Positions 18,001 through 24,000 of a DNA stretch of 64,000 nt are shown piece by piece. The number at the start of each line of letters is the position of its first letter. Position 1 is the stretch's first letter. The position numbers were made by a program. Source of the stretch: Laetmonice hystrix (lineage: Eukaryota); the NCBI GenBank assembly GCA_965235115.1, contig OZ249452.1:12710001-12774000 (forward strand), written 5' to 3'.

Positions 18001-21000
18001 TTAGAAGCGACGACCCAGCACCTTCCAAGTGTTAAAAAAGCTATGGTAAGCTCGCTGTTAGTGTAAACCATTATGTTGTTACATCCCAATCACCACTGTT
18101 TACAGTTATACTACGCTCCTAACCGCATCCCATACTCGTCCGCCCAGTTAATATAAGCCAACATCTTAAGACAAATGCATACTTTAGCATTACACGGATT
18201 TTGAAGTATAAGTCTTGTTTCATTAACATAATGGGTTCTTAATATTTTTTAATATGTTTTATCTACCATGATATTTTTGGTGTCCATAGAAGGCCACAAT
18301 TGTACTTATTTAAAGCAAGATTATCGTTAATTATTTGACTAATCCTGGAACTATTCAGATAAAATAAATACCAATATGCCTTTGATGGGATTCCTCACCT
18401 TCGACCTTGAGATAGGCCCCGGCCTCCTTGGCCCCTGCTCTGACAACATAATACCCCTCATCGATACCCGTGACGTCATAGACCCTCAAACACCTGGTGG
18501 CGCCACTGGTGGTGGTTTCAAATTTTTCACTGTCGTAAATCTGTATGCCGTCAATGTACCACGTGACCTGTGTGTCTGGTGGCGACACCTCACAGGTAAA
18601 GGCGGCAACTGAACGTTCCGATATCTCGGAGTCATTGGGAGTCCGAAGGAAAATGATGGGGTCATCTGGTAAAAACACAACCATGCAAACTCAACACAAC
18701 AAAATCTTATAAAACTACTTTTGGGGATCTTTTCTTTGGAAGTCTTGCAAAAGTACATGCTTGAAGTAATAATCAAACGCTAAACCAACGTGAACGTGCT
18801 AATGGTATTATACGGAAATCCAACCACAAAATTATATGTAAAGTAAATATGGGGAAAAACCAAAACTGAATTCAATGTAATTAACATGGTATCTAGTAGC
18901 ACACCATGCAGCAAACGACCTACCGCCTGTCTGAAACGCTCAATCGTAGTCCGTCTATAGGTCCTCCTGCTGAATGGTTGGACTAAAGTATGAAATGATT
19001 CTGATAAAGAAGGTTCCAGGAGTTCCAGGAGAGAGTTAACCTACCTTCCACCTTCAGTTTCCCTGTTGTCTTGACGTTCTTGGTCTTACAGGTGATGTCT
19101 CCGCTATCCTTCAGAAGTGTGTCCTTGATGATCAAAGTGTGTTTGCATCCGTCGTGGCTGAACTCGTACTTATCGCTCGGTTTGAGAGGAATGTTCTTCA
19201 TATACCACTTCACTTCAAACTCCTCATCGTTCAGTTCACACGTGAAGGTTGCTTCTGTGTGCTCAGGAGTTGTAACATCGTTCAGTTTGGCAGTGAACTC
19301 GGGCACCAAGGCTGAAAAAAAATCATGGATTGTCTTGAAATTCGAACATTGAGAGAGTGCTTCTTAATGATGAAAAATATGGGATAATATTGAAAAGTCA
19401 ACTTTAAAGAATTATCAAGACTTGTAACAGTAACGTTAAACATTACCAGGTTTGTCAATTAAGTCTCAAATTATAACCTAAAATGGATTTTTTTAAATGT
19501 GTTAGTATACGAGTTCTTTACCAAATACCTAGACCACGTGAACCCCCCCCCCCCTTACCCTTTAAGTACCAATTTCAGATCTCTTTAATGTAACTGTCTT
19601 TTCTCTATCTAATTACGGTTCCTTCACTACAGAGTAAAATAATAATGATAAAGACTTACGCTCCACAAAGAGCTTAGCTTTGCTCTCTGCCTTACGGAAG
19701 ACAGCCTTGACTTCGCCCTCATCGACTGGCCTTGCAATGTTAATACACAGTCTGTGAGTGAAGTCCTCAGCAAACACCTGGTATTTGGGACCTGGAACGA
19801 CCTTAGTGTCCTTGACAAACCAATCCAGGGGCATCTTCTTGTGGGTGACGTCACACTCAAAGATCCCGTTCTCTTTCTCTTTTATGTGTTGGTCCTCAAG
19901 TTCTCGGGTGAAACCGAACTGAAACAATCAGATTGAAAATGTTATCTTGACTTCGCACTTGCCCAGCTTGGCTAGCTGCTCAAGAAATGAGCATGCAGTG
20001 AGTTTGTCCTAACATATTTTACAAGCCCCCGTAGGTGAACCGCAATGCAGTGGCCAGCCCGGTTATTAGTCTATATAGATGAGTTTTAGTGACGACAACT
20101 TTGTCACACTACCCCCATGTCCTCATGAGAACCTCTAATGGCTGCTTTCAAATCAAATACTCACCTCAGCTTTTCCAAGAGGCAAGTCCTTTTCTTCAGG
20201 TTCTTCGACCTTCTTCTGTTTAGGCTGCCTCTGGTAAGCATCCTTGTCCTCCTCTGGCTCGACCTTCTCCTCCGCCGGTTCCTTCTTTGGTGATGGTCTC
20301 TTGGCCAAGTGGATGGAATCACGTTTCTTGCGTTCGTACCCCTCCCGCTCACGGTCCTCAGTGGGAACCTCTTCCTTGACTTCCTCTATTTGTTCTGGTG
20401 TTTTCTTCTCAACATGTCTGAGAGTATACTGAAGCTGTTCTGGGACATCCTCCTTGGTATCGTATTCAACCTTCCGAAGTTTCCCCCAGTCGACTTCCTC
20501 TACACCTTGATCTTTCACCTCATAGGTACTGAAATATGTTTTTTAATGATACATTTTATTATTTGATCATTGGACCACCTAAAATAAAATCACACCTAGG
20601 ACAAAATCACTCGAAAGTTCTCTGATCAGATCACTACCCTGTAGGATGAAATTACTCTAGAGTGTTCTGAACCTAGGATGAAATTACTCTAGAGTGTTCT
20701 GAACCTAGGATGAAATTACTCTAGAGTGTTCTGAACCTAGGATGAAATTACTCTAGAGTGTTCTGAACCTAGGACTAGAGCACTCTAAGAGTGTTCTGAA
20801 CCTAGGATGAAATTACTCTAGAGTGTTCTGAACGTAGGACTAGAGCACTCTAAGAGTGTTCTGAACCTAGGATGAAATCACTCTAGAGTGTTCTGATCCT
20901 AGGATGAAATCACTCTAGAGTGTTCTGATCCTAGGCGGATATCACTCTAGAGTGCTGATCCTAGGATGATATCACTCTAGAGTGAAAAATGAGGGTAGTT

Positions 21001-24000
21001 ATTTGATCCTGCTACACCTGTACTCACGTCTCTTTGAGTGCAGCCTTCCAGTCCTCAGCCTCCTCAGGTTTGTCGGTCACCATCAGTGTGGCGGGACAGG
21101 TGTCACTACCGAAGTCGTTCTCGATTGTAACCGTATACGTTCCAGCCTCCTTCTTGACAATTCCGTCGATCTCGAGGACGTGTTGCCCAGAAGGCTCGTC
21201 CAAGTACACCCTTGTTTTGGCGTCGTTTTTCATTTGTTTCCACTTGCCCTTAGACCACGTGACCTTCGGCGGGGGGTCTCCCTCGACCCGACAACGGAAG
21301 ATGAGCGTTTCTCCCTCCAGGATGGTACATTTGAGCGGTTTCTCGATGAAGGTCGGGGCGTGACCTTGGACGTTGAGATTGGCCTTGCATGAGTCTTCTC
21401 CACCTTGGTTTACGGCAACGACCTTGATTTCCCCGCCCATCTCTGAGAGGTCGTTGGTCAAGGTCATGTAGTACATCTTGGACCTGTCGTCGATCTCGAA
21501 CTGGATGTTTTCAGAGGGCTGGATCTCCTTGTCGTTCAGGAGCCACGTGACTGTCGGAGTCGGGAAGCCGGTGATCTTACATACGAACTTTCCTGGACCG
21601 TTGTTAGGAGCAACGGTGTCTTTGATTGGCTGGACAATCTTTGGAGGTTGTACAGCTGAAAGTGTGAAAGAATTCAGAATGAGAACAAATTAACCATATT
21701 ATATACGTTGCTCGACTTCATGATTTTAATTTCTTTTTTTTTTCATTGAATTTTTTTAAATTGGAATTCAAACCCTTTCAAAGTAGCATCGGCAGCTTTT
21801 AGGTGACATGCCTCGTCCTCATAGAATTGCCTTTATTCAAGCACTTCCGAAAAAAACTTCCAAACTTACCACTCCACTGTTATAAACTTATTTTTATCAA
21901 ACATATTTTAGGGCAAGGGGTGCGGGGCTCTGTAGCCCGTCTGCAACTGTATCAAAATACTATTCATATGAGCATATTTTAAAAAAATACACCTATTGCA
22001 AATAACATGTCTTCATTGCCCCTTGAAAAGGACTCGGCCTATCAAAAATCACAACTCTTAAGTTTTAAGCCACAGCGCTGACATTTAAGTTTATAGCTAG
22101 GCCCGTCCCCCTTACATATAGATACTAGTACAACATACATAAACAGGTGTCCTTACTGTAAACAGCTTTGTTTAACTTCTCCCTGGTTAAATAAAGAATT
22201 GAGTAGAAATCTAGAGCGTGTCTGCTTGGCGTTACAAGCACTTTGAGCGGTGAGTAGAGCAGCAGTCATTGCATGCTCATTGTGAATTCAGGACATGTAC
22301 GGAGAACATGAACTGGGTCTGACCGTGTCAGTGTAATCCTCTCCCACGGACGCCGACTGACTGAGTGTCATCTCCAGTCCGTAATAAAAAGAAACTTTTC
22401 AAAGTGTCAGTCTAAAGGCTTATGCTATTACGCCACGGGGCACAGGTACATTGTGACCCAGACCTCGGATCATATGGCCTCCCGCGGGGCAGTGTTGGAG
22501 AGATACCTGAACCAGGACAATCACCCATGGGGATATCTCCACAAAATTTGGTGATACGAATCCCTATACGTATCCATGTCCCTATCTCTTACCCCTCTCC
22601 CTGCTGTGGGGATTTTACTATAGGGGATGGTCGTTCAGCCGTAGCCGCACGTCGGGACCACCTGGGTTAAAGTCTCAGGTGAGTTCCCGAGCGAGGCGGA
22701 GGAGGGGGAGGTATATGTACTTACATACATACACAACAGACGCATGTCGACATAACATGACAGCGCTCACATTCCGCGCGTCCATCAGGTATAACACAAA
22801 CGCTGGCACAGAAACCGAAACGGGAACACAGCGTTCCTGTCGGATCCAACCCACCATACACGTCCCTCCCTCACACCTCGTTGTTCATGTTAAAAACTTT
22901 CAGTACTCACGAGTGATTTTAAGCCGGGCGCTCGCACTCATCTGACCGAGTGGGTTCTTGGCCCGGACGGTAATCATGCCTGCCTCTTCCTTCACGACTT
23001 TCTTGATGATGAGGGAGTGACGATCGCCATCATGCTCGTACACGATCCGGTCCGACGGTTCCAGTTTCACATCTTGTTGGAACCTGACAGACACACAGAC
23101 AGAAATTGTCAGTGAGGATCGTGGCTGTGAAAATCCTTGGCAACCTGCCTTACCTTTTAAGGCCGTGGATATTTGTACCTTGTTTAACTATCTCAGACCG
23201 TAAACCACAGATTTACCTGACCGTCATCTGATATTAGTTTTGATATTGCACAAATGTAAGGTATAGTTTGAGGTGAAGAGAATATTTCTACTTCAACTGT
23301 AGCGTCGGATCATTCCAAGAAAAGTTGACATTCCAAAGGAAGGTCAACCGTGACTGACAGGACCAGGTTAACCATAACTTCAGAGAAGATGATTGTAGAG
23401 AACAAGGTTCCTAAAGTTTATGCGATCTCATAACCTAACTTTTCTATGCAGCTATGTAATGTAAACAGCTCGACCTCTTCAGTTTTTGTTGAATAATATA
23501 GTATGATCGCATTGTTTTGTTATTAAATTAACTTTCATTCAGAATTTTGTTGCCTATGTTGCCTGTTTCTCCGTCCCTATGTGAAACAATTAATAGACTG
23601 TAATACTCTTGGCCTGATGCAAACTATGTAGGTTGTAGTTCGTTTGTCCCCGTTATTGGCCTCAGGCAGTCATGTTTACAAATAATGGGTCCCGTGCCCC
23701 CATTAAGTAGTAGGGGGTCAGTATAGTATTAGTGTCAATAAGCTGCCTTCAATCACGTGTTGTAACAAATTCACATTTACTGTAAAACCTCTACCTCAAT
23801 ACATGTTGCTGTTAATGTATGCCAGTTATAGGGACATACAGTAGTTATGGTGGCCAGTCAGAAAACAGCTCTCTTATACTTACAGAGGGATATTGTCTTG
23901 GACAAAAATAAAACACATGACCTTATTTTTTTTCTTTGTTTCCCCACTTTTGCATTCTGAGCAAGTTTTGACGAGGTAAATAACCGGTAGAATGGCTAGT

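What the first reader, a model, noticed from the sequence alone, without database searches (positions are those of the whole stretch)
18399..21655. N2A/MyBP-C-like module lacking the conserved tri-helix core
Seen in sequence: an Ig with TWSKGKWKQM, then EDWKAALKET, VEEVDWGKLRKV, a charged linker and three Igs. The third Ig begins DPIIFLRTPND...FTCEVS...VTWY. Established (from recall of the human sequences): titin I80 has KGKWRQL followed by DLRAMLKKT and EEIDIMELLKNV, and I83 begins EPIQFTKRIQN...FECEVS...VTWY. MyBP-C C1 has KGKW. Both then carry the EYE..YG.TD.RG helix bundle (ANKRD/MARP binding in titin). I find no such motif in the 364-nt exon or the adjacent 246-nt intron. The position after I83, which is PEVK in vertebrates, holds the 6.2-kb non-PEVK exon. 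Inference: an ancestral or remodelled N2A signalling hub.
Basis: partly seen in the sequence, partly recalled or inferred. Interest (0 to 1): 0.65.

Follow-up and report, generated by a model that had tools for sequence, protein, structure and literature searches.

The report
Titin N2A-like hinge without helix bundle
An invertebrate-type titin-like muscle gene carries the counterpart of the vertebrate N2A hinge, with the same kind of Ig domain and first linker motif but a different, lineage-conserved linker where vertebrates have the three-helix docking bundle.

Summary
On the minus strand, five canonical exons (21655-18399) encode Ig, a 'KGKW' Ig, a 121-aa unique exon and three Igs. A 6219-nt non-PEVK exon follows.

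No tri-helix bundle (THB) is detectable. Pfam THB, PDB phmmer, two profile-profile runs and a THB-HMM scan of all six frames of the 64-kb window were negative. The positive controls passed: an amphioxus IGSF22-like protein, a goby titin fragment and PDB 7NIP.

The unique exon is not junk. It has homologues in unnamed invertebrate-type fragments, with three conserved short blocks. A hemichordate 'twitchin-like' protein carries the four Igs in the same order.

The KGKW Ig is the best match to the goby I80-like Ig. An AU test does not reject one clade for all KGKW Igs. It is not like MyBP-C C1. The three following Igs are not specifically I81-I83.

The motif after the Ig (DWKAAL) belongs to the DFRxxL type, also seen after Igs in MLCK-like proteins, the goby titin fragment and cMyBP-C.

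Best reading: an old Ig-DFRxxL-linker cassette at the N2A position, without the MARP-docking bundle. Whether this is ancestral or a loss stays open. I do not take the window for human.

The parts
21028..21655 (-). Exon E1 (628 nt, enters in phase 1, leaves in phase 2): Ig1, the KGKW Ig (Ig2) and a 16-aa tail
   Evidence: AG acceptor and GT donor read. Pfam I-set, 2 stretches, 1.3e-36. 86% identical fragment P0076.
21078..21365 (-). Ig2, the 'KGKW' Ig (W.KGKW at 21257-21240), with a PxP BC-loop and an NxxG FG-loop
   Evidence: It is the best match of the goby I80-like Ig. It lies in a clade with other linker-preceding Igs.
21030..21056 (-). Motif 1, EDWKAALKE, a DFRxxL-type motif directly after Ig2 at the exon end
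   Evidence: Counterparts are EFRTTLRK in the goby titin fragment, DFRSLLKH in Ptychodera and Anneissia, DFRQLLKS in Patiria MLCK-like, and LDFSSLLKK in cMyBP-C chain 7tij_G (output).
20165..20528 (-). Exon E2 (364 nt, phase 2 to 0): unique 121-aa E/K-rich linker with no Pfam family and no tri-helix bundle
20468..20500 (-). Block A, EEVDWGKLRKV
   Evidence: Alignment A1. A family HMM also finds PDWGKLKHIE in P0040 and PDWGELKHVE in P0049.
20402..20434 (-). Block B, LQYTLRHVEKK, at fixed spacing from block A
   Evidence: Alignment A1, where L36 and V39 are invariant. Also.
20165..20236 (-). Block C, YQR..K...E.K.L.L.GKAE, at the 3' end of E2
   Evidence: Alignment A1. P0132 and P0089 end the homologous stretch at the same point and then read into intron-like sequence.
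19660..19918 (-). Exon E3 (259 nt, phase 0 to 1): Ig without the PxP/NxxG signatures
   Evidence: Pfam I-set 7.7e-08. Best PDB domain is 5jdd domain 1 at 43.1 bits. Best Ig of P0040 is 1624-1706.
19045..19311 (-). Exon E4 (267 nt, phase 1-1): Ig
   Evidence: Pfam I-set 2.1e-14. I81, I82 and I83 score 35.6, 35.4 and 34.8 bits. Best Ig of P0040 is 1712-1787.
18399..18665 (-). Exon E5 (267 nt, phase 1-1): Ig of the I83/obscurin kind
   Evidence: Pfam I-set 3.3e-11. Within 7ahs, I83 scores 37.2 bits against 18.0 and 18.0. Obscurin 7r67 scores 42.0 bits. Best Ig of P0040 is 1814-1891.
11147..17365 (-). Exon 6 (6219 nt, phase 1-1): S/E/T/D-rich unique sequence with no Pfam family, not PEVK
   Evidence: Acceptor and donor read. 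Composition. Pfam found 0 families.

Best explanation
The five exons encode the N2A-position cassette of a non-vertebrate (invertebrate-type) titin/connectin-like gene. The cassette has four parts.
1. A pair of Igs. The second is the rare KGKW subtype.
2. A DFRxxL-type amphipathic motif (DWKAAL) right after that Ig.
3. An obligatory unique exon. Its E/K-rich chain got no confident fold (AF2 pLDDT 61-63). It carries three short blocks conserved in related animals.
4. Three Igs of the titin I-band/obscurin kind.

The first Ig and first motif are shared with vertebrate titin N2A (I80 plus the start of UN2A). They are also shared with Ig-DFRxxL units of MLCK-like and twitchin-like proteins. The three-helix bundle that docks MARPs in vertebrates is not there.

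Shown here: the anatomy, the conservation, the absence of the bundle and the Ig relationships.

Inferred: it works as a compliant hinge. Its DW/DFRxxL-type motifs and conserved blocks would bind the thin filament or another partner, rather than a MARP through a folded bundle.
For: Anatomy
- The splice sites are canonical. E1+E2+E3 total 1251 nt and stay in frame only as one block (phases 1>2>0>1). E4, E5 and exon 6 are each phase 1-1.

Conservation
- phmmer of E1 against 1.84 billion representatives returned window-type fragments: P0076 (86% identity), P0132 (55%), P0123 (50%) and P0089 (38%).
- Ig2 alone scores 184.4, 133.0, 125.3, 98.4, 61.8 and 51.7 bits to P0076, P0132, P0123, P0089, P0059 and P0134. 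Generic Igs score 51.2 bits or less.
- E2 has real homologues. P0132 scores 21.8 bits (iE 2.1e-06) and P0059 14.1 bits (iE 5.3e-04) in the 150-protein set. BLASTP gives 35.9% identity over 117 aa, E 2e-06.
- Alignment A1 shows blocks A, B and C.
- In Ptychodera flava twitchin-like P0040, the best-matching Igs for Ig2, E3, E4 and E5 lie in order: 1371-1462, 1624-1706, 1712-1787 and 1814-1891.

Link to N2A
- In goby titin fragment P0066, the best Ig for Ig2 is the KGKWRQ Ig at 1712-1796 (34.0 bits, next 28.1). That Ig is followed by EFRTTLRK and a bundle.
- W.KGK[WFY] occurs 7 times in 163 stored proteins. All 7 are followed by a bundle (3) or a window-type tail (4).
- In the tree of 121 Igs, Ig2 sits in a 10-row clade (SH-aLRT 89). 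The clade holds the window-type Igs, the bundle-adjacent amphioxus Ig and the Ptychodera and Anneissia Igs.
- AU test of the 7 KGKW Igs held as one clade: p 0.784, and the constrained tree is 34 lnL units better than the quick free tree.

No bundle
- Pfam THB does not match E2 at E<=1. It also misses P0132, P0134, P0089, P0123 and P0040.
- As controls, Pfam THB gives 43.9 bits on amphioxus P0109 and 21.1 bits on goby P0066.
- PDB phmmer of E2 at E<=10 gave 4 hits, none titin or MyBP-C. P0109's bundle finds 7NIP and five MyBP-C chains.
- hhalign probability was 0.43% and 0.15%.
- A bundle HMM against 2599 six-frame ORFs of the whole window gave a best hit of 7.8 bits, E 0.44.
- AF2 of E2 gave pLDDT 60.9 from the single sequence. 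With the 5-row alignment it gave 63.2, pTM 0.13 and no secondary structure.

Motif type
- The motif [DE][FWYL][RKS]..[LIM][KRQ] within 30 aa after an Ig occurs in 11 of 102 Igs: 3 of 5 KGKW Igs and 8 of 97 others. Seven of those eight lie in the two neighbouring tree clades.
- DFRxxL motifs of MLCK bind F-actin (PMC2185581, passages; PMC2196421, abstract in listing).
Against: - E3-E5 are not specific counterparts of I81-I83.
- In the free tree the goby I80-like Ig lies in the neighbouring clade with MLCK-type Igs (SH-aLRT 86), not with the window's Ig.
- Tree supports are below 95. The tree rests on 94 columns and a quick search. The KGKW letters themselves are among those columns.
- Only one vertebrate N2A fragment (goby) plus PDB pieces could be compared. 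Human I80 and MyBP-C C1 were not aligned, and Ig2 shows no C1 preference.
- Motif 1 departs from DFRxxL (W for F, K for R).
- The second DW motif has L one position early. It lies about 21 residues after the first, not the 28-29 reported for MLCK.
- The PEVK-like exons are upstream of the cassette, not downstream as in vertebrates.
- There are no expression data and no binding data.
- Low AF2 confidence is not proof of disorder.
- The organism is not identified, so 'titin ortholog' rests on architecture. That architecture is an SH3 exon, Ig-PEVK repeats and best hits named titin-like or twitchin-like in hemichordates and a crinoid.
Confidence: 0.6

Rival explanations
1. It is only one more copy of a widespread Ig-DFRxxL-linker unit of titin/MLCK/twitchin-family proteins. 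It has no special (orthologous) relation to vertebrate N2A, and the N2A-like layout is coincidental.
For: - The same window has two further DFRxxL motifs in small ORFs near 53.8 and 53.19 kb.
- MLCK-like proteins of Patiria and unnamed relatives have Ig + DFRxxLK tails.
- The goby I80-like Ig groups with those MLCK-type Igs in the free tree.
- E3-E5 match obscurin and other titin Igs as well as they match I81-I83.
- PEVK lies on the other side of the cassette.
Against: - The W.KGK[WFY] signature is rare. It occurs 7 times in 163 proteins that hold many Igs each, and only before bundle or window-type linkers, including the goby I80-like Ig.
- The AU test favours rather than rejects one clade.
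- Ig2's best match within the goby fragment is the I80-like Ig.
- The whole four-Ig order is kept in a hemichordate protein.
Confidence: 0.25
2. The tri-helix bundle is present in E2 but has diverged beyond sequence detection. Block A would be helix 1 and block B helix 3, and the segment would still fold and dock a partner like UN2A.
For: - Blocks A and B keep a fixed spacing in 4 of 5 rows of A1, as a folded element would.
- Single-sequence AF2 drew three short helices at 30-39, 44-52 and 57-72.
- By eye, EEVDW..LRK resembles the EEDVW..LRQ of cMyBP-C, and LRHV resembles the LKHV of amphioxus P0109 (output).
Against: - hhalign probability is 0.43% and 0.15%.
- The family HMM does not list the P0109, P0163 or P0066 bundles among its best 30 hits in 163 proteins.
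- Pfam THB is silent on 6 of 6 window-type proteins but detects even the divergent goby bundle.
- The A-to-B distance is about 5 residues shorter than in the bundle.
- The EY of the window is not conserved in its own family.
- AF2 with the alignment gave no secondary structure, pTM 0.13.
That model is low-confidence, so this weighs little.
Confidence: 0.1
3. A bundle-coding exon exists but was missed. It could be an alternative micro-exon in the 499-nt or 246-nt intron, or it could lie elsewhere.
For: No transcript data were available. Titin I-band regions are heavily alternatively spliced (PMC12241362, passages).
Against: - A bundle HMM built from 3 stored bundles found nothing above 7.8 bits (E 0.44) in all 2599 six-frame ORFs of 15 aa or more in the window. 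Its next hits are the upstream DFRxxL motifs.
- The E1-E2 intron is mostly a 32-nt tandem repeat at 20642-20984.
- E1's phase-2 end and E2's start fit each other exactly.
- The orthologous fragments P0132 and P0123 run from the Ig tail straight into block A.
Confidence: 0.03

Closest known systems
Vertebrate titin N2A element (I80-UN2A-I81-I82-I83)
   Same: The layout is the same: an Ig with PxP/NxxG signatures, then a unique linker of about 100-140 aa, then Igs of another subtype. A KGKW-type Ig precedes the linker (goby fragment). A [DE][FW][RK]xxL[RK] motif sits directly after that Ig. The third Ig begins like I83.
   Different: No tri-helix bundle (PF18362, 7NIP) is detectable. The linker continues with other, lineage-conserved blocks. 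The three Igs are not specifically I81-I83. A non-PEVK 6.2-kb exon follows, and the PEVK-like exons are upstream. MARP and calpain-3 binding are unknown.
MyBP-C C1-M motif (and the amphioxus IGSF22-like / obscurin-like-1 proteins P0163/P0109)
   Same: An Ig with W.KGK[WF] is followed by a helical or linear-motif linker and then Igs. cMyBP-C has an LDFSSLLKK motif before its bundle (output). The amphioxus bundle-adjacent Ig falls in the window Ig2's clade.
   Different: There is no bundle. Ig2 shows no preference for vertebrate C1, since the best cMyBP-C stretch is C10. There is no Pro/Ala linker or C0. It is a different gene: P0109 is about 30-39% identical.
DFRxxL actin-binding repeats of smooth-muscle/non-muscle MLCK
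   Same: An Ig is followed by D-aromatic-basic-x-x-L-basic. Echinoderm MLCK-like proteins carry the same Ig+DFRxxLK unit, and their Igs are tree neighbours.
   Different: The window has DWK rather than DFR. There are only one or two motifs, and the spacing is about 21 residues rather than 28-29. No kinase is in the window. Actin binding is untested.
Hemichordate and crinoid 'twitchin-like' proteins (P0040 Ptychodera flava, P0049 Anneissia japonica)
   Same: P0040 is collinear: the Ig2-like Ig, then DFRSLLKH, then PDWGKLKHIE (block A), then Igs that are the best matches of E3, E4 and E5 in order. Neither has a bundle.
   Different: Their linker is about 45 aa long and has an RRSSK-type basic stretch. 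It lacks blocks B and C. P0040 has an extra Ig before the E3-like Ig. The Ig2 match scores only 46.0 bits in P0040 and 28.3 bits in P0049.

Membership tests
Titin N2A element | I80-type Ig (PxP BC-loop, NxxG FG-loop, KGKW) directly before the unique sequence | tested here: met
   Ig2 has DPPPKV and NDFG (definitions from PMC8305307 passages). Its best match in goby fragment P0066 is the KGKWRQ Ig, 34.0 against 28.1 bits. AU p is 0.784 for one KGKW clade. Human I80 itself was not available.
Titin N2A element | Unique sequence with a tri-helix bundle core (Pfam PF18362; PDB 7NIP) | tested here: not met
   Searches were negative. The controls were positive.
Titin N2A element | Three Igs orthologous to I81, I82 and I83 after the unique sequence | tested here: inconclusive
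   Three Igs are present. Within 7ahs, E5 is best to I83 (37.2 against 18.0 and 18.0 bits), but obscurin 7r67 scores 42.0. E4 is equal to all three. E3 is best to 5jdd.
Titin N2A element | Followed by the PEVK segment | tested here: not met
   Exon 6 has a P+E+V+K fraction of 0.29. PEVK-like exons (0.81) lie upstream at about 44-28 kb. The vertebrate order is taken from PMC12241362 passages.
Titin N2A element | Binds MARPs (UN2A central helix + I81) and calpain-3 (I82-I83) | not testable with these tools
   Partner sequences of this organism are not at hand. The binding sites are quoted from PMC8305307 passages.
MyBP-C C1-M module | C1-like Ig | tested here: not met
   In the PDB phmmer of Ig2, no C1 chain is in the best 60. 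The best stretch in full-length cMyBP-C is residues 1179-1267, taken from its position near the C-terminus of the 1274-residue chain to be C10.
MyBP-C C1-M module | Tri-helix bundle in the M motif | tested here: not met
   Same tests as for titin.
MLCK-type DFRxxL actin-binding motif | D-F-R-x-x-L, repeated every 28-29 residues | tested here: inconclusive
   DWKAAL fits with conservative changes. The second motif, DWGKL, has L one position early and lies about 21 residues away (spacing from PMC2185581 passages).
MLCK-type DFRxxL actin-binding motif | Binds F-actin | not testable with these tools
   This needs co-sedimentation.
I-set immunoglobulin domains (PF07679) | Pfam match above the gathering score | tested here: met
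   E1 scores 125 bits, E3 32.7, E4 53.8 and E5 43.5, against a cut-off of 23.7.

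The most novel reading that the evidence does not exclude
The three-helix MARP-docking bundle of vertebrate N2A is a later addition to an older Ig(KGKW)-DFRxxL-linker cassette. The addition could have arisen in situ or been taken from a MyBP-C/IGSF22-like gene. The amphioxus version of that gene has the bundle closest to titin's (37.3 bits to 7NIP, against 33.3 or less to MyBP-C). On this reading the window shows the pre-bundle state of the titin hinge. 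Its own conserved blocks A-C would then be docking sites for a different, still unknown partner set shared by several invertebrate lineages.
Probability: 0.3. Interest if true: 0.6.

Novelty: new variant of a known kind. Interest (0 to 1): 0.45.

Why it matters
N2A is the main I-band signalling and thin-filament-locking site of vertebrate titin. Its origin is not described in the papers I could search. Listings showed no paper on an N2A-like element outside vertebrates. The amphioxus connectin paper is not held.

A conserved N2A-position cassette that has the KGKW Ig and the DFRxxL-type motif but no bundle separates two layers of the element. The older layer is an Ig-plus-linear-motif unit shared with MLCK-like, twitchin-like and MyBP-C-like proteins. 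The other layer is the folded MARP-docking bundle.

This gives a testable question: did thin-filament contact at this site come before MARP signalling? It also supplies three short conserved blocks as candidates for partner mapping.

Tried and rejected
- The search for homologous proteins with E2, 'longer' (213-2000 aa): none of 486 candidates scored.
- The same tool with P0109's bundle region and with its Ig+bundle region, 'shorter': only P0163 in both. No vertebrate MyBP-C or further titin N2A sequences could be fetched. As a result C1 and human I80 were never aligned.
- The representatives search lists only the best 150 of 9636 hits by total score. Short N2A fragments may sit unseen below the giant Ig proteins.
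- ESM Atlas with E2: no usable hit.
- Foldseek of the single-sequence E2 model against PDB: 0 matches at E<=10. The model is low-confidence.
- I made a by-eye alignment of E2 to the bundle (EEVDW..LRK / EY / QY.T.LR). I rejected it as unsupported. hhalign probabilities are 0.43% and 0.15%, and the EY is not conserved in the family.
- A basophilic-kinase-like KKRDS in E2 (residues 67-71) is not conserved in A1. I dropped it as a feature.
- Paper reading for PubMed id 21510959: not held.
- The second AU test, on the wider 'linker-preceding' set, did not finish and I did not resume it.
- I did not run complex prediction. No partner sequence is at hand and no binding claim rests on it.
- The joined exon model was never made or searched.
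- RNA-seq could not be consulted.
- I did not ask for paper supplements. The conservation figure S3 of PMC7093598 may bear on UN2A.

Full report
**Scope and rules.** The gene lies on the minus strand. I searched every exon on its own. I do not take the window for human. It holds an SH3 exon (Pfam SH3_1, 3.3e-11). It also holds a long array of alternating PEVK-like and Ig exons at about 44-28 kb. Its closest protein matches are unnamed fragments and proteins named titin-like or twitchin-like in hemichordates and a crinoid. The window has no N.

**1. The observation.** All quoted strings are present, and the splice sites are canonical.

| Exon | Coordinates | Length | Content |
|---|---|---|---|
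| E1 | 21655-21028 | 628 nt | Ig1, Ig2 (TWSKGKWKQM) and the tail DKPEEAEDWKAALKE |
| E2 | 20528-20165 | 364 nt | 121-aa unique sequence starting ..VEEVDWGKLRKV |
| intron | 20164-19919 | 246 nt | - |
| E3 | 19918-19660 | 259 nt | Ig |
| E4 | 19311-19045 | 267 nt | Ig |
| E5 | 18665-18399 | 267 nt | Ig |
| Exon 6 | 17365-11147 | 6219 nt | unique, not PEVK |

- Pfam I-set matches E1 (two stretches), E3, E4 and E5. E2 has no family.
- Exon 6 has a P+E+V+K fraction of 0.29, against 0.81 in an upstream PEVK-like exon. Pfam finds no family in it.
- The phases run 1>2>0>1 across E1-E2-E3, which together are 1251 nt. These three exons can therefore only be used together.
- E4, E5 and exon 6 are each symmetric, phase 1-1, and could be skipped singly. 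This follows directly from the coordinates.

**2.
- The amphioxus protein P0109 is named obscurin-like 1 isoform X6, Branchiostoma. It turned up in the E1 search and carries a Pfam tri-helix bundle: PF18362, 43.9 bits, residues 398-429.
- Its bundle finds PDB 7NIP (titin, 41 aa, 37.3 bits). It also finds four cMyBP-C chain sequences (7tij, 2lhu, 5k6p, 8g4l) and one slow MyBP-C chain (9pfe). Those alignments show the EYE..YG.TD.RG core in both families.
- Papers say the same. UN2A has a tri-helix core like the MyBP-C bundle (PMC7093598 and PMC11687307, passages).
- CARP contacts the central helix, the linker and the BC loop of I81. I80 was modelled as an N-conserved Ig (PMC8305307, passages).
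- I83 beginning EPIQF..FECEVS..VTWY is seen.
- Human I80 and C1 were not seen in any call.
- A goby titin fragment stands in for human I80. P0066 (Knipowitschia caucasica) has a KGKWRQV Ig, then EFRTTLRKT, then DVDIVDLLRGN and a divergent bundle. Pfam still detects that bundle at 21.1 bits, below the 25-bit cut-off.

**3. Is a bundle hidden in the window?** I found none.
- Pfam at E<=1 is silent on E2.
- PDB phmmer of E2 at E<=10 gives 4 unrelated hits.
- A family HMM of the E2 start lists none of the three stored bundles among its best 30 hits in 163 proteins.
- hhalign gives a probability of 0.43% locally and 0.15% with the tool, A1 against A2.
- An HMM of the three stored bundles was scanned over 2599 six-frame ORFs of the whole window. 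The best hit scores 7.8 bits (E 0.44) at 11035-10952. The next hits are DFRxxL motifs far upstream.
- The E1-E2 intron is largely a 32-nt tandem repeat.
- AlphaFold2 gives no confident fold for E2. pLDDT is 60.9 from the single sequence, with three short low-confidence helices. With five aligned rows pLDDT is 63.2, pTM is 0.13 and no secondary structure is assigned.

**4. The unique exon is conserved.**
- E1 against 1.84 billion representatives gave 9636 hits at E<=0.001, of which the best 150 are listed.
- Among them are short fragments that continue past the Ig: P0076 (86% identity, ends at the exon end), P0132 (55%), P0123 (50%), P0089 (38%), P0059 and P0134. The cluster mate of P0134 is called 'titin' by its source.
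- E2 matches P0132 and P0059 significantly.
- Alignment A1 shows three blocks in an otherwise variable charged chain:
  - Block A, EE.DWG.LKK.
  - Block B, L.Y.L[KR]HVEKK, at fixed distance from A.
  - Block C, Y[QE]R..K...E.K.L.L.K[AV][EQ], at the exon end.
- After block C, P0132 and P0089 also stop and read into intron-like sequence.
- Block A recurs as PDWGKLKHIE and PDWGELKHVE in the twitchin-like proteins of Ptychodera flava (P0040) and Anneissia japonica (P0049).
- In P0040 the best-matching Igs for Ig2, E3, E4 and E5 lie in the same order. The cassette is therefore older than the window's lineage.
- None of these proteins has a Pfam bundle.

**5. Does the KGKW Ig group with I80 and C1?**
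- With I80: modestly yes.
  - Ig2's best Ig in the goby fragment is the KGKWRQ Ig, 34.0 bits against 28.1 for the next.
  - W.KGK[WFY] occurs 7 times in 163 stored proteins. Each time it precedes a bundle (P0066, P0109, P0163) or a window-type tail (P0076, P0123, P0132, P0089; the first two are cut short).
  - I collected 133 Ig rows and dropped 12 near-identical window repeats, leaving 121.
  - In that tree Ig2 lies in a 10-row clade (SH-aLRT 89). The clade holds the window-type Igs, the amphioxus bundle-adjacent Ig and the Ptychodera and Anneissia Igs.
  - The goby I80-like Ig lies in the neighbouring clade (SH-aLRT 86) with Igs that precede DFRxxL in MLCK-like proteins. Both clades sit inside a 38-row clade (SH-aLRT 93).
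  - The label needs 3 changes on the tree, against a shuffled mean of 6.9. None of 500 shuffles was as low.
  - Holding the 7 KGKW Igs together gives a tree 34 lnL units better than the quick free tree, p-AU 0.784.
  - Caveats: few columns, a quick search, and the motif letters are among the columns.
- With C1: no. No C1 chain is in the best 60 PDB hits of Ig2, and the best stretch in full-length cMyBP-C is 1179-1267, near the C-terminus of the 1274-residue chain, which I take to be C10.

**6. The three Igs.**
- E5 is best to I83 within the I81-I83 crystal chain: 37.2 bits against 18.0 and 18.0. The alignment starts at its first residue.
- However, a single obscurin Ig (7r67, 42.0 bits) equals I83 alone (6yj0, 40.9 bits).
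- E4 scores about 35 bits to each of I81, I82 and I83.
- E3 is best to 5jdd domain 1 (43.1 bits), and I83 scores only 23.1.
- They belong to the titin I-band/obscurin/MyBP-C Ig class. One-to-one orthology with I81-I83 is not shown.

**7. The motif type.**
- The tail after Ig2 (DWKAAL) fits the DFRxxL pattern with conservative changes.
- The same place holds EFRTTLRK in the goby titin fragment, DFRSLLKH in P0040 and P0049, and DFRQLLKS or DFRSLLKS in the MLCK-like protein of Patiria and relatives. cMyBP-C has LDFSSLLKK ahead of its bundle.
- I examined 102 Igs. Window rows and rows with fewer than 25 residues after the Ig were left out.
- Of these, 11 carry the motif within 30 residues: 3 of 5 KGKW Igs and 8 of 97 others. 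Seven of those eight lie in the two neighbouring clades of the tree.
- In MLCK such motifs bind F-actin and are spaced 28-29 residues apart (PMC2185581, passages; PMC2196421, abstract in the listing).
- The window also has two canonical DFRxxL motifs in small ORFs near 53.8 and 53.19 kb. They are collinear with the DFR-rich stretch of the unnamed orthologue P0124.

**8. How it most likely works.**
- Shown: an indivisible Ig-Ig-linker-Ig block followed by two skippable Igs; a conserved linker with three short blocks; no folded bundle.
- Inferred: the linker is a flexible, highly charged hinge (D+E 30%, K+R 22%). Its DW/DFRxxL-type motifs contact the thin filament, and its blocks dock partners as short linear motifs.
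- The vertebrate way of docking MARPs through a three-helix bundle is not available here.
- I give the identity (N2A-position cassette without the bundle) 0.6. The actin-contact mechanism is a lead and has not been tested.

**9. Ancestral or remodelled?** This stays open.
- The bundle exists in amphioxus in another gene, of the IGSF22-like / obscurin-like-1 kind. That copy is closer to titin's bundle than to MyBP-C's.
- One reading is that the window-type linker lost the bundle.
- The other is that vertebrate titin gained it later.
- The organism of the window is not identified.
- The layout fits my recollection of the published description of amphioxus connectin, with an Ig-PEVK region in the I-band. 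That paper is not held, so this is recall only.

**10. Novelty.** Listings of four literature searches showed no paper on an N2A-like element outside vertebrates. Passages read in PMC12198301, PMC12241362 and PMC5299520 do not treat it either. I rate it a new variant of a known kind, of moderate interest.

Noticed in passing
window 11138-11147 (minus strand): The donor of the 6.2-kb exon (AAG|GTAAAT) is followed at once by an in-frame TAA. An AATAAA overlaps the stop. If the donor is not used, the protein ends two residues later. This could be an alternative terminal exon giving a truncated isoform, like novex-3 in layout.
   Followed up: partly
window about 44550-27480 (minus strand): There are about 14 repeats of a PEVK-like exon (PEKPKEPSPEK..., P+E+V+K 0.81) alternating with an Ig exon. 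The copies are nearly identical. So the PEVK-type spring lies upstream of the N2A-like cassette, not downstream as in vertebrates.
   Followed up: partly
window 60336-58459 (minus strand ORF, residues 545-597): An SH3 domain (Pfam SH3_1, 3.3e-11) sits at the end of a 626-aa acidic ORF. It is 45% identical over 77 aa to a crinoid 'titin-like' protein (P0016).
   Followed up: partly
window about 53839-53720 and 53358-53143 (minus strand): Two small ORFs carry canonical DFRxxL motifs (EQVDFRNVLKS and KDFRSILKKR). They lie between Ig exons and are collinear with a DFR-repeat stretch in the unnamed orthologue P0124.
   Followed up: partly
window 20642-20984: A 32-nt tandem repeat (10.7 copies, 89% matches) fills most of the E1-E2 intron.
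   Followed up: yes
window 63998-63261 (minus strand, runs off the window): An ORF holds about four near-identical 44-aa repeats (QPEETMDFTQQATVTKKVTTKVITQEGEM...TEGV). It has no Pfam family above cut-off.
   Followed up: no
window about 14300-13900 (inside the 6.2-kb exon, minus strand): Three tandem copies of a unit of about 37 aa (..VTLQVSDEGVPSTDAGQLVEESVAPGEEETSVEESNE..) lie in the S/E-rich exon.
   Followed up: no
window 4340-224 (minus strand): An array of 8 closely similar Ig exons of the obscurin / titin I-band kind repeats about every 530 nt. These look like recent tandem duplications.
   Followed up: no
stored protein P0017 (bird titin fragment), residues 1563-1690: A vertebrate titin Ig outside N2A is also followed by a DFRSVLRR motif. 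Ig-DFRxxL units therefore occur more than once in vertebrate titin too.
   Followed up: no
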